From a phage: 501 nucleotides of DNA. A program made the translations under genes and the position numbers. Shown here in pieces: positions 1-501 of this stretch. A model generated the notes under the pieces. The model saw only the letters and a program-made list of their open reading frames with translations. It made no database searches and had not been told where the DNA came from. The number at the start of each line of letters is the position of its first letter. Position 1 is the stretch's first letter. The stretch lies in sequence record MH607138.1; one strand, given 5' to 3'.

Positions 1-501
1 ATGCAGATCTTCAACATGCGTACCAACGACGAAGGTGTTCTGGGTCTGCGTCTGACCCTGTACAAAGACACCCGTGGTTTCTGGACCATCGGTGCTGGTA
101 TCTGGACCGTTTGCGCTAACCCGGTTTGCGCTGGTGCTCTGGACCGTATGATCGGTCGTAAATGCAACCCGACCGTTTGCCTGCTGAAAGCTCGTAAACA
201 GTTCAACAAAAAAGTTAACAAAGCTGGTCGTGGTGCTATCGCTGGTAACGCTTCTGTTAAACCGGTTTACAAATCTCTGAAAGCTGGTCTGGCTTCTGCT
301 CTGGTTAACATGGCTTTCCGTCGTGCTTCTTTCCCGTACAACGTTGCTTTCCGTTCTCTGCGTCTGCTGAAAAAACAGAAACGTTGGCGTAACCTGAACG
401 CTGGTAAAGCTTGCCGTAAATGGTACCGTCAGACCCCGAACCGTGCTAAACGTGTTATCAAAACCTGGGCTGGTGGTAAAGTTTCTCGTCGTGACATCGA
501 A
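1..501 (+). CDS. Phage T4-type lysozyme-like muramidase (GH24 / endolysin fold), synthetic codon-optimised variant; 167 codons, 3' end open (no stop codon in window)
   Basis: Seen in sequence: ATG at 1-3 and frame +1 open across all 167 codons (501 = 167 x 3). The other two forward frames hit stops early (e.g. TGA at 52-54 in frame +2, TAA in frame +3 near 116-118). Translation aligns by eye along its full length to T4 lysozyme as I recall it: MxIFxM..DEG at the N-terminus, LRLxxYKDTxGxxTIGxG, IGRxCN, KPVYxSL, INM, SLRxLxxKRW, WYxQTPNRAKRVI. Catalytic residues are conserved: Glu11 (nt 31-33), Asp23 (nt 67-69, = T4L Asp20), Thr29 (nt 85-87, = T4L Thr26). Codon usage is strictly one codon per amino acid (cgt, ctg, ggt, gct, aaa, acc, ccg, tct, gtt, aac, gac, gaa, cag, ttc, tac, atc, tgc, tgg, atg), so the DNA is a back-translated design. 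Product assignment rests on recalled T4L sequence, not a database search. Confidence 0.88.
   Translation, partial: MQIFNMRTNDEGVLGLRLTLYKDTRGFWTIGAGIWTVCANPVCAGALDRMIGRKCNPTVCLLKARKQFNKKVNKAGRGAIAGNASVKPVYKSLKAGLASALVNMAFRRASFPYNVAFRSLRLLKKQKRWRNLNAGKACRKWYRQTPNRAKRVIKTWAGGKVSRRDIE

What the first reader, a model, noticed from the sequence alone, without database searches (positions are those of the whole stretch)
28..90. T4 lysozyme catalytic core conserved within an otherwise strongly diverged sequence
The motif D10-E11-G12 and the block YKDTxGxxTIGxG (aa 21-33) retain the T4L catalytic Glu11, Asp20 (here Asp23) and Thr26 (here Thr29), while roughly half of all other positions differ from T4L. 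Selective retention of the catalytic residues suggests the sequence was selected or designed to stay an active muramidase rather than being a random or decoy sequence.
Basis: partly seen in the sequence, partly recalled or inferred. Interest (0 to 1): 0.55.

Follow-up and report, generated by a model that had tools for sequence, protein, structure and literature searches.

The report
Synthetic, highly cationic T4-type lysozyme variant
The window is a man-made, codon-optimised gene for an artificial, extremely positively charged derivative of a T4/RB69-type phage lysozyme; it keeps the catalytic residues but carries so many harsh changes that activity is doubtful, so it is a design curiosity and not a biological discovery.

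Summary
Frame +1 is one 167-codon ORF, and D10-E11-G12 (nt 28-36) and YKDTRGFWTIGAG (nt 61-99) align with T4 lysozyme Glu11, Asp20 and Thr26.

The window is not natural DNA. Every amino acid uses a single codon, there is no stop codon, and no DNA relative was found.

The protein is not closest to T4 (45% identity). Its nearest relative is the e lysozyme of RB69/JS09-type Mosigvirus phages (58%); nothing closer turned up in about 5.8 billion sequences.

The divergence is unnatural:
- Substitutions are almost as radical as random ones.
- There are five indels, including a 3-residue insertion between the catalytic Glu and Asp that no homologue has.
- 9 of 29 near-invariant family positions are lost.
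- 13 of 14 non-catalytic acidic residues are removed, giving net charge +30 and pI 11.4.

The three active-site acids are among the only four acids kept (p = 0.006). That supports deliberate or model-learned protection of the active site. Survival of E11, D20 and T26 alone is not significant (p = 0.2).

Evidence that it is still an enzyme is weak. The Pfam score is 24.2 bits against a 22.3 cut-off (natural relatives score about 52). AlphaFold confidence is low (pLDDT 55-59), worst in the catalytic region.

Verdict: an artificial member of a known family, of low interest.

The parts
1..501 (+). Complete synthetic coding sequence: 167 codons, ATG start, no stop codon, exactly one codon per amino acid. 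It encodes an artificial GH24/T4-type lysozyme derivative with net charge about +30 and pI 11.4.
   Evidence: PF00959 24.2 bits. T4L chains in the PDB E = 1e-31. Nearest natural relative 58% identity.
28..36 (+). D10-E11-G12. E11 corresponds to the catalytic Glu11 of T4L. D10 corresponds to Asp10, the salt-bridge partner of Arg145 in T4L (that role is from my own knowledge).
   Evidence: Invariant in the 14-sequence alignment; alignments.
37..45 (+). Inserted V13-L14-G15 between the catalytic Glu and the first beta-strand. It lengthens the Glu-to-Asp spacing from 9 to 12 residues.
   Evidence: Gap in all 13 natural sequences of alignment A1. The spacer is 5 residues in 47 of 47 homologues and 8 only in the window.
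46..72 (+). Verbatim parental block LRLTLYKDT (aa 16-24). It includes D23, which corresponds to T4L Asp20 (nt 67-69).
76..93 (+). Verbatim parental block GFWTIG (aa 26-31). It includes T29, which corresponds to T4L Thr26 (nt 85-87).
139..168 (+). Verbatim block LDRMIGRKCN (aa 47-56). It is specific to the RB69/JS09-type parent and is not conserved across the family. It contains the only non-catalytic acid retained (D48) and the native Cys (T4L Cys54).
316..327 (+). FRRA replaces the near-invariant family motif FQMG. Q105R, M106R and G107A (T4L numbering) put two arginines into a conserved segment.
418..459 (+). Longest verbatim block, KWYRQTPNRAKRVI (aa 140-153). It includes the counterparts of T4L Trp138 and Arg145, and the start of the cationic amphipathic C-terminal helix.
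   Evidence: The membrane-active role of T4L helix 143-155 is as cited in PMC11929351.

Best explanation
The window is an entire synthetic gene, made by back-translating a protein with a fixed one-codon-per-amino-acid table and leaving off the stop codon. From my own knowledge, the codons are the E. coli high-expression optimal set.

The protein is an artificial derivative of the e endolysin (GH24 muramidase, Pfam PF00959) of an RB69/JS09-type Mosigvirus phage. It was most likely produced by a computational generator or a mutate-with-constraints procedure, not by evolution. About 42% of positions were changed, mostly by radical replacements. Five small indels were introduced. Nearly every acidic residue outside the active site was replaced by Lys, Arg, Asn or another non-acidic residue. 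That raises the net charge from about +9 to about +30.

Several segments were left verbatim. They include those carrying Glu11, Asp20 (here D23), Thr26 (here T29) and Arg145.

If the chain folds, it would work like T4 lysozyme (established mechanism, my own knowledge). Glu11 protonates the MurNAc-beta-1,4-GlcNAc glycosidic oxygen, and Asp20 and Thr26 position the attacking water.

I infer that folding and catalysis are badly compromised; I put the chance of wild-type-like activity at roughly 10-15%. Any antibacterial effect would then come more plausibly from the polycationic, amphipathic C-terminal helices acting on membranes.

Shown: synthetic coding, family and parent, charge inversion, spared active-site acids, unnatural substitution pattern. 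Inferred: generator type, loss of activity, membrane action.
For: Synthetic origin:
- 19 distinct sense codons for 19 amino-acid types, and none of the 17 degenerate amino acids uses more than one codon. The natural homologous gene uses 49 codons.
- There is no stop codon and the source is exactly 501 nt.
- No blastn match in phages or plasmids.

Family and parent:
- PF00959 match and T4L E = 1e-31.
- The best natural relatives are Mosigvirus e lysozymes at 56-58% identity. Nothing closer appears among 5.8 billion clustered proteins or 1.84 billion representatives.
- The verbatim block LDRMIGRKCN is specific to RB69-type sequences.

Unnatural divergence:
- The mean BLOSUM62 score of mismatches is -0.90. 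Natural pairs give -0.12 at 65% identity and -0.35 to -0.55 at 33-36% identity.
- Replacements are only slightly better than shuffled ones (-1.28 +/- 0.16).
- BLASTP positives are 63% against 58% identities.
- 44 of 66 substitutions need at least 2 nucleotide changes.

Charge:
- 13 of 14 non-catalytic acids are replaced (P = 7e-5).
- D10, E11 and D20 are among only 4 acids kept of 17 (P = 0.006).
- pI 11.4 and charge +30.

Partial site awareness:
- The family-HMM score is 111 bits, against 82 +/- 12 for random-position mutants (P = 0.0055).
- Identity runs are clustered (P = 1e-4).

Doubtful function:
- 9 of 29 near-invariant columns are lost.
- 5 of 33 conserved hydrophobic columns became polar or charged; natural members average 1.3.
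- The Glu-Asp spacing is altered, uniquely among the homologues.
- Pfam gives 24.2 bits against about 52 for natural members.
- AlphaFold pLDDT is 54.7 and 59.1, and residues 11-43 fall below 50.
- The alignment-based model superposes on T4L at only TM 0.66 and rmsd 6.2 A; the single-sequence model finds no match.
Against: - The provenance (which generator or which laboratory) cannot be established. The peptide strings are absent from the searchable literature, and no paper describing a supercharged T4L was found.
- Most conserved hydrophobic positions (28 of 33) and 5 of 6 conserved glycines are kept.
- The sequence still passes the Pfam threshold.
- The alignment-based model is recognisably T4L-like, so a marginally folded, weakly active enzyme is not excluded.
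Low confidence may partly reflect the 14-sequence alignment.
- From my own knowledge, T4L is famously tolerant of single substitutions.
Confidence: 0.66

Rival explanations
1. Deliberate, rational charge engineering ('supercharging') of a T4-type endolysin. The aim would be an active muramidase that can cross the Gram-negative outer membrane or bind anionic surfaces. The active site is consciously fixed, and the protein works as a self-penetrating lysozyme.
For: - Acids are removed almost completely while the three active-site acids are spared.
- The cationic C-terminal helix block is kept verbatim.
- Changing the net charge of endolysin catalytic domains is a documented engineering strategy (PMC12730064, citing Low 2011 and Shang & Nelson 2019).
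- Positive charge on the T4L C-terminal helix is linked to activity against Gram-negative bacteria (PMC11929351).
Against: - A rational supercharging design changes surface residues only. This sequence also has five indels, radical changes at conserved hydrophobic positions (L7R, L66Q, M106R), the loss of the FQMG motif, four new cysteines, and a 3-residue insertion inside the catalytic Glu-Asp segment.
- Seven of the 26 parental basic residues were replaced by non-basic ones, which is pointless for supercharging.
- No publication on such a T4L variant was found.
Confidence: 0.12
2. A pure decoy or noised sequence. A natural lysozyme was randomly mutated (or imperfectly 'recalled') with a skewed residue palette. 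The catalytic motifs survived by chance or as part of arbitrarily kept blocks, and the product has no function.
For: - Substitution quality is close to random (-0.91 against -1.28 for shuffled replacements).
- Survival of E11, D20 and T26 alone has P = 0.20.
- One long kept block (LDRMIGRKCN) has no special family conservation.
- A tandem stutter (GFWTIGA then GIWTVCA) and repeated C-x4-C motifs look like generator artefacts.
- AlphaFold confidence is low.
Against: - Sparing of exactly the active-site acids has P = 0.006.
- The family-HMM score is above that of random-position mutants (P = 0.0055).
- Kept positions are enriched among conserved columns (69% against 48%, Mann-Whitney P = 0.037).

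These point to some site-specific knowledge, not blind noise. This rival overlaps the best explanation; they differ only in intent.
Confidence: 0.2
3. A genuine but very divergent natural phage lysozyme whose protein sequence was simply back-translated for gene synthesis.
For: Back-translation says nothing about where the protein came from. The sequence passes the PF00959 threshold, and its hydrophobic-violation count (5) lies within the range of the most distant natural members (maximum 6).
Against: - No relative above 58% identity in 5.8 billion sequences, 1.84 billion representatives or 50,697 phage genomes.
- Long verbatim RB69-type blocks sit next to near-random segments, unlike natural divergence.
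- Mismatches are far more radical than in natural pairs at any identity level.
- Nine near-invariant residues are lost.
- The insertion between the catalytic residues is unique.
- Natural relatives have pI 9.6-9.7; this protein has 11.4.
Confidence: 0.02

Closest known systems
Endolysin (gene e product) of RB69/JS09-type Mosigvirus phages, e.g. Escherichia phage vB_EcoM_LNA2 and RB69
   Same: 58% identity over 159 residues. Blocks LRLTLYKDT, GFWTIG, LDRMIGRKCN, KPVY, ALVNM and KWYRQTPNRAKRVI are identical. Same catalytic residues and overall length.
   Different: 66 substitutions, mostly radical. Five indels. 13 of 14 non-catalytic acids removed (net charge +30 against +9). Four extra cysteines and no histidine. 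FQMG changed to FRRA. Fully recoded DNA (58% nucleotide identity over aligned codons, no blastn hit).
Bacteriophage T4 lysozyme (GH24, PF00959; PDB 2LZM and hundreds of mutants)
   Same: 45% identity, E = 1e-31. Glu11, Asp20, Thr26, Arg145, Trp138 and Met102 equivalents are present. The alignment-based model is roughly T4L-like (TM 0.66).
   Different: It is more distant than the RB69-type parent. A 3-residue insertion follows Gly12. The predicted structure is low-confidence and superposes poorly (rmsd 6.2 A). Its Pfam score is half that of T4L (24.2 against 51.7 bits).
Charge-engineered endolysins (net-charge variants of lysin catalytic domains, Low et al. 2011; PlyC CHAP, Shang & Nelson 2019) and supercharged proteins
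   Same: A wholesale shift of net charge towards positive while the catalytic residues are kept. The strategy is described in PMC12730064.
   Different: Published charge engineering alters a modest number of surface residues and introduces no indels or core changes. Here the charge shift comes with near-random divergence elsewhere. The review also reports mixed results or no benefit from charge changes.
Machine-generated artificial lysozymes (e.g. language-model-generated PF00959 members such as the ProGen lysozymes; my own knowledge, not checked here)
   Same: A non-natural sequence of a lysozyme family, with indels and low identity to any natural protein, ordered as a synthetic gene.
   Different: From my own knowledge, published functional generated lysozymes have natural-like composition and substitution patterns. 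This sequence is compositionally extreme and loses near-invariant positions. No literature match was found.

Membership tests
Pfam PF00959 Phage_lysozyme / GH24 T4-type lysozyme | Profile-HMM score above the curated gathering threshold | tested here: met
   24.2 bits against a 22.3 cut-off, E = 4.6e-5. This is marginal: natural T4L, RB69-type and distant members score 47.6-52.5 bits.
Pfam PF00959 Phage_lysozyme / GH24 T4-type lysozyme | Catalytic Glu (T4L Glu11) at the end of helix A, within D-E-G | tested here: met
   D10-E11-G12 is present and aligned. The column is invariant in the 14-sequence alignment.
Pfam PF00959 Phage_lysozyme / GH24 T4-type lysozyme | Asp20 and Thr26 equivalents in the Y-x-D-[ST]-x-G-x-x-T-[IV]-G hairpin | tested here: met
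   Y21-K-D23-T-R-G-F-W-T29-I-G, nt 61-93.
Pfam PF00959 Phage_lysozyme / GH24 T4-type lysozyme | Fixed spacing between the catalytic Glu and the Asp (9 residues; a 5-residue spacer between 'EG' and 'YxD') | tested here: not met
   The spacer is 5 in 47 of 47 homologues that carry the motif and 8 only in the window, because of the inserted VLG. This is an empirical invariant of the sequences retrieved here, not a formal family definition.
Pfam PF00959 Phage_lysozyme / GH24 T4-type lysozyme | Two-lobed alpha/beta T4L fold with the active-site cleft between the lobes | tested here: inconclusive
   The model built with an alignment has pLDDT 54.7 and pTM 0.44, and matches T4L at TM 0.66 and rmsd 6.2 A. 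The single-sequence model has pLDDT 59.1 and no T4L match, TM 0.17.
Pfam PF00959 Phage_lysozyme / GH24 T4-type lysozyme | Conservation of near-invariant structural and substrate-site residues (e.g. the F-Q-M-G motif, Leu7, Thr59, Glu62, Arg95, Phe114, Ser136) | tested here: not met
   9 of 29 columns that are at least 90% conserved in 31 natural homologues are changed, mostly radically. FQMG has become FRRA.
Pfam PF00959 Phage_lysozyme / GH24 T4-type lysozyme | N-acetylmuramidase activity on peptidoglycan | not testable with these tools
   This needs expression and a turbidity or zymogram assay, with E11 and D23 substitutions as controls.
Natural phage endolysin gene (lysis gene in a phage genome) | Natural codon usage, a stop codon, phage genomic context, and close homologues in sequence databases | tested here: not met
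   One codon per amino acid and no stop codon. The source is only 501 nt. No DNA match was found. The nearest protein is 58% identical.

The most novel reading that the evidence does not exclude
The sequence is a working muramidase. It would be active despite net charge +30, the loss of nine near-invariant family residues, and a 3-residue insertion between the catalytic Glu and Asp. Such a polycationic GH24 enzyme could cross the Gram-negative outer membrane unaided. It would show that the T4-lysozyme fold and active site tolerate far more radical, non-natural divergence than family alignments suggest.
Probability: 0.07. Interest if true: 0.5.

Novelty: new variant of a known kind. Interest (0 to 1): 0.15.

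Why it matters
For biology it matters little. The window holds no natural gene, regulatory element or new system, only an artificial relative of one of the best-studied enzymes.

Its practical value is as a test case. Homology tools still recognise a heavily 'paraphrased' synthetic protein: Pfam only marginally, pairwise search clearly. Three cheap signatures tell a manufactured homologue from a natural one: single-codon usage, substitutions of near-random quality next to verbatim parental blocks, and a targeted composition shift that spares the active-site acids.

If the protein turned out to be active, it would be a notable example of fold and active-site robustness, and a possible self-penetrating endolysin scaffold.

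Tried and rejected
1. Frameshift origin of the diverged segments. Frames +2 and +3 of the natural LNA2 e gene are full of stops and do not resemble the window segments. Rejected.
2. DNA-level point mutation of the natural gene. 44 of 66 substitutions need at least 2 nucleotide changes, and mutated codons would break the one-codon rule. Rejected.
3. A natural divergent homologue. The word-indexed search of 5.8 billion proteins, the exhaustive HMMER search of 1.84 billion representatives and tblastn of 50,697 phage records all top out at 56-58% identity. Rejected.
4. DNA similarity to phages or plasmids (blastn, word size 11). No hit.
5. An RNA element on either strand. There are no Rfam matches. 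The only other ORFs are 22-25 aa, and no inverted repeats were found.
6. Literature provenance. 'Supercharged' plus 'T4 lysozyme' gave nothing relevant, and three peptide strings from the window are in no held paper.
7. A systematic T4L tolerance map (Rennell 1991; Baase 2010). Neither paper is held, so the statements about T4L tolerance rest on my own knowledge.
8. NCBIfam. Only a weak sub-threshold hit to the GTA endolysin BgtA (23.7 bits against a 315 cut-off), as for the natural parent. Uninformative.
9. An AlphaFold control on the natural parent.

Full report
**What is in the window.** The 501 bases are the whole source. In frame +1 they translate into 167 residues with an ATG start and no stop codon. 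The only other ORFs are 22-25 aa. There are no Rfam matches and no inverted repeats.

Codon usage is strictly one codon per amino acid: 19 distinct sense codons for 19 amino-acid types. None of the 17 degenerate amino acids uses a second codon. The homologous natural gene uses 49 codons, and 17 of its 18 degenerate amino acids use several. From my own knowledge, the chosen codons (GCT, CGT, GGT, GTT, TCT, ACC, ATC, TTC, TAC, GAC, AAC, CTG, AAA, GAA, CAG, CCG, TGC) are the optimal codons of highly expressed E. coli genes. This is the signature of mechanical back-translation, not of any genome. In line with that, blastn finds nothing in 50,697 phage records or 72,556 plasmids.

**Checking the observation.** D10-E11-G12 lies at nt 28-36 and YKDTRGFWTIGAG at nt 61-99, so the block runs 9 nt beyond the stated end. 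HMMER and BLASTP alignments to T4 lysozyme put E11 on Glu11, D23 on Asp20 and T29 on Thr26. The offset of three comes from an inserted V13-L14-G15.

Homology is beyond doubt:
- E = 1e-31 to T4L chains in the PDB
- 45% identity to wild-type T4L
- PF00959 above its gathering score

**What the protein derives from.** T4 is not the closest relative. tblastn against phage genomes, and the 5.8-billion-protein search, both give the e lysozymes of RB69/JS09-type Mosigvirus phages as best hits at 56-58% identity. Examples are Escherichia phage vB_EcoM_LNA2, RB69 and Shigella phage ESh27. The exhaustive HMMER scan of 1.84 billion representatives finds nothing closer.

Identity to this parent is not spread evenly. 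It sits in verbatim runs of 14, 10, 9, 6, 5 and 4 residues: KWYRQTPNRAKRVI, LDRMIGRKCN, LRLTLYKDT, GFWTIG, ALVNM and KPVY. The three longest runs together have P about 1e-4 under random placement. LDRMIGRKCN is specific to RB69-type sequences and is not conserved across the family. This shows direct derivation from that lineage.

**Why the divergence is not natural.**
1. Mismatches against the parent average -0.90 in BLOSUM62 and only 14% score positive. Natural family pairs give -0.12 at 65% identity and -0.35 to -0.55 even at 33-36% identity. The observed value is only slightly better than reshuffling the new residues among the mutated sites (-1.28 +/- 0.16).
2. 44 of 66 substitutions need two or three nucleotide changes.
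3. There are five indels within 162 residues plus a rewritten C-terminus.
4. 9 of the 29 columns that are at least 90% conserved in 31 natural homologues are changed, and FQMG has become FRRA.
5. The spacer between the catalytic 'EG' and 'YxD' is 5 residues in all 47 homologues that carry the motif, and 8 only here.

**The organising principle is charge.** The parent has 17 acidic residues and the window keeps four of them: D10, E11, D20 and D47 in T4L numbering. Thirteen of the 14 acids outside the active site are replaced, mostly by Lys, Arg or Asn (hypergeometric P = 7e-5). Two new acids appear in the rewritten C-terminal tail (D165, E167).

Given that only 4 of 17 acids survive, the chance that they include all three active-site acids is 0.006. 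Net charge rises from about +9 to about +30 and pI from 9.7 to 11.4. There is no histidine, and there are five cysteines against two in the parent.

The unconditional test is not significant: E11, D20 and T26 all escaping 66 random substitutions has P = 0.20.

More general site awareness is modest but detectable:
- 69% of highly conserved columns are kept, against 48% of variable ones (Mann-Whitney P = 0.037).
- A family HMM built without the window scores it at 111 bits. Two thousand mutants with the same number and palette of changes at random positions score 82 +/- 12 bits (P = 0.0055). The parent scores 261 bits.
- 28 of 33 conserved hydrophobic columns remain hydrophobic or Ala. The five violations (L7R, L33T, L66Q, M106R, Y161R; approximate T4L numbering) compare with a natural mean of 1.3 and a maximum of 6.

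- Pfam gives 24.2 bits against a 22.3 cut-off, while T4L, the RB69-type parent and a 28%-identical natural member all score 47.6-52.5 bits.
- AlphaFold2 with the 14-sequence alignment gives pLDDT 54.7 and pTM 0.44. Residues 11-43, the catalytic Glu, the insertion and the beta-hairpin, fall below 50. That model matches T4L structures only loosely (TM 0.66, rmsd 6.2 A).
- The single-sequence model (pLDDT 59.1) does not resemble T4L at all; its best T4L-containing chains have TM 0.17.

From my own knowledge of T4L, buried charges such as M102K cost several kcal/mol, and insertions cost 2-5 kcal/mol. I therefore infer that L7R, L66Q, M106R, L133K, G107A, F114A, two Gly-to-Pro changes and five indels together most likely exceed the fold's stability budget. 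I put the chance of wild-type-like activity at roughly 10-15%.

**Mechanism.** If the protein folds, it would act as T4L does (my own knowledge). Glu11 serves as general acid on the MurNAc-beta-1,4-GlcNAc bond, with Asp20 and Thr26 positioning the water.

If it does not fold, a +30 polypeptide still remains. It keeps the cationic amphipathic C-terminal helix segment PNRAKRVI verbatim and adds further Lys, Arg and Trp around it. The corresponding T4L helices (residues 126-155, especially 143-155) are reported to penetrate membranes independently of catalysis (During et al. 1999, as cited in PMC11929351). A non-enzymatic, antimicrobial-peptide-like action is therefore the more plausible residual activity.

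Changing the net charge of lysin catalytic domains is a known engineering idea with mixed results (PMC12730064).

**Provenance.** No paper holds the sequence, and no report of a supercharged T4L was found.

The sequence combines several features:
- verbatim blocks
- near-random replacements with a skewed palette (Arg 10, Ala 10, Lys 7, Asn 5, Gly 5, Cys 4)
- small indels
- a tandem heptad stutter, GFWTIGA followed by GIWTVCA
- two look-alike C-x4-C motifs, CANPVC and CNPTVC (P = 0.004; 0.02 allowing any spacing from 2 to 6)

These suggest an algorithmic generator or noising procedure with protected or weighted sites, not a human structure-based design. That is inference.

**Verdict.** The sequence was indeed made with the active site protected, but nothing shows that it remains an active muramidase, and several tests argue against it. 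It is an artificial variant of a very well-known family, carried on synthetic DNA, and its interest for genome biology is low.

Noticed in passing
window 1-501: Strict one-codon-per-amino-acid usage (19 sense codons in total), no stop codon, GC 50% against 41% in the natural gene. The window equals the whole source record, so it is a back-translated synthetic CDS and not a piece of a genome.
   Followed up: yes
window 76-117 (aa 26-39): The tandem 7-residue stutter GFWTIGA then GIWTVCA (21-nt units, 76% nucleotide identity) replaces the parental GFWTIGIGHLVTKN. It looks like a copy or repetition artefact of a sequence generator.
   Followed up: partly
window 112-129 and 163-180 (aa 38-43, 55-60): Two similar C-x4-C motifs with Asn-Pro inside (CANPVC, CNPTVC). 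Only C55 is native. The chance of two neighbouring Cys pairs spaced exactly 5 is 0.004 (0.02 for any equal spacing from 2 to 6). Whether they could form disulfides or a metal site was not examined.
   Followed up: partly
window 37-45 (aa 13-15): The inserted VLG lies directly between the catalytic Glu and the first strand. None of 47 homologues has any length variation there.
   Followed up: yes
PDB hits 144L/146L against window aa 132 and 156: The top-scoring PDB chains are T4L core-repacking mutants that share A129L and F153W with the window. Their margin over other T4L chains is only about 0.2 bits, so this is probably coincidence.
   Followed up: no
representative-library hits P0014-P0028: The best hits in the 1.84-billion-protein library are 258-514 aa proteins that carry a 45%-identical T4L as an internal or terminal domain. 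These look like engineered T4L fusion constructs sitting in a library of 'natural' predicted proteins.
   Followed up: no
L001 (MZ311865.1 12945-13412, Escherichia phage vB_EcoM_LNA2): The closest natural gene lies in an unannotated, 'UNVERIFIED' Mosigvirus JS09 genome record. Its product shares N36, K122 and A131 with the window where RB69 itself differs. This points to a JS09/LNA2-type and not a strict RB69 parent.
   Followed up: partly
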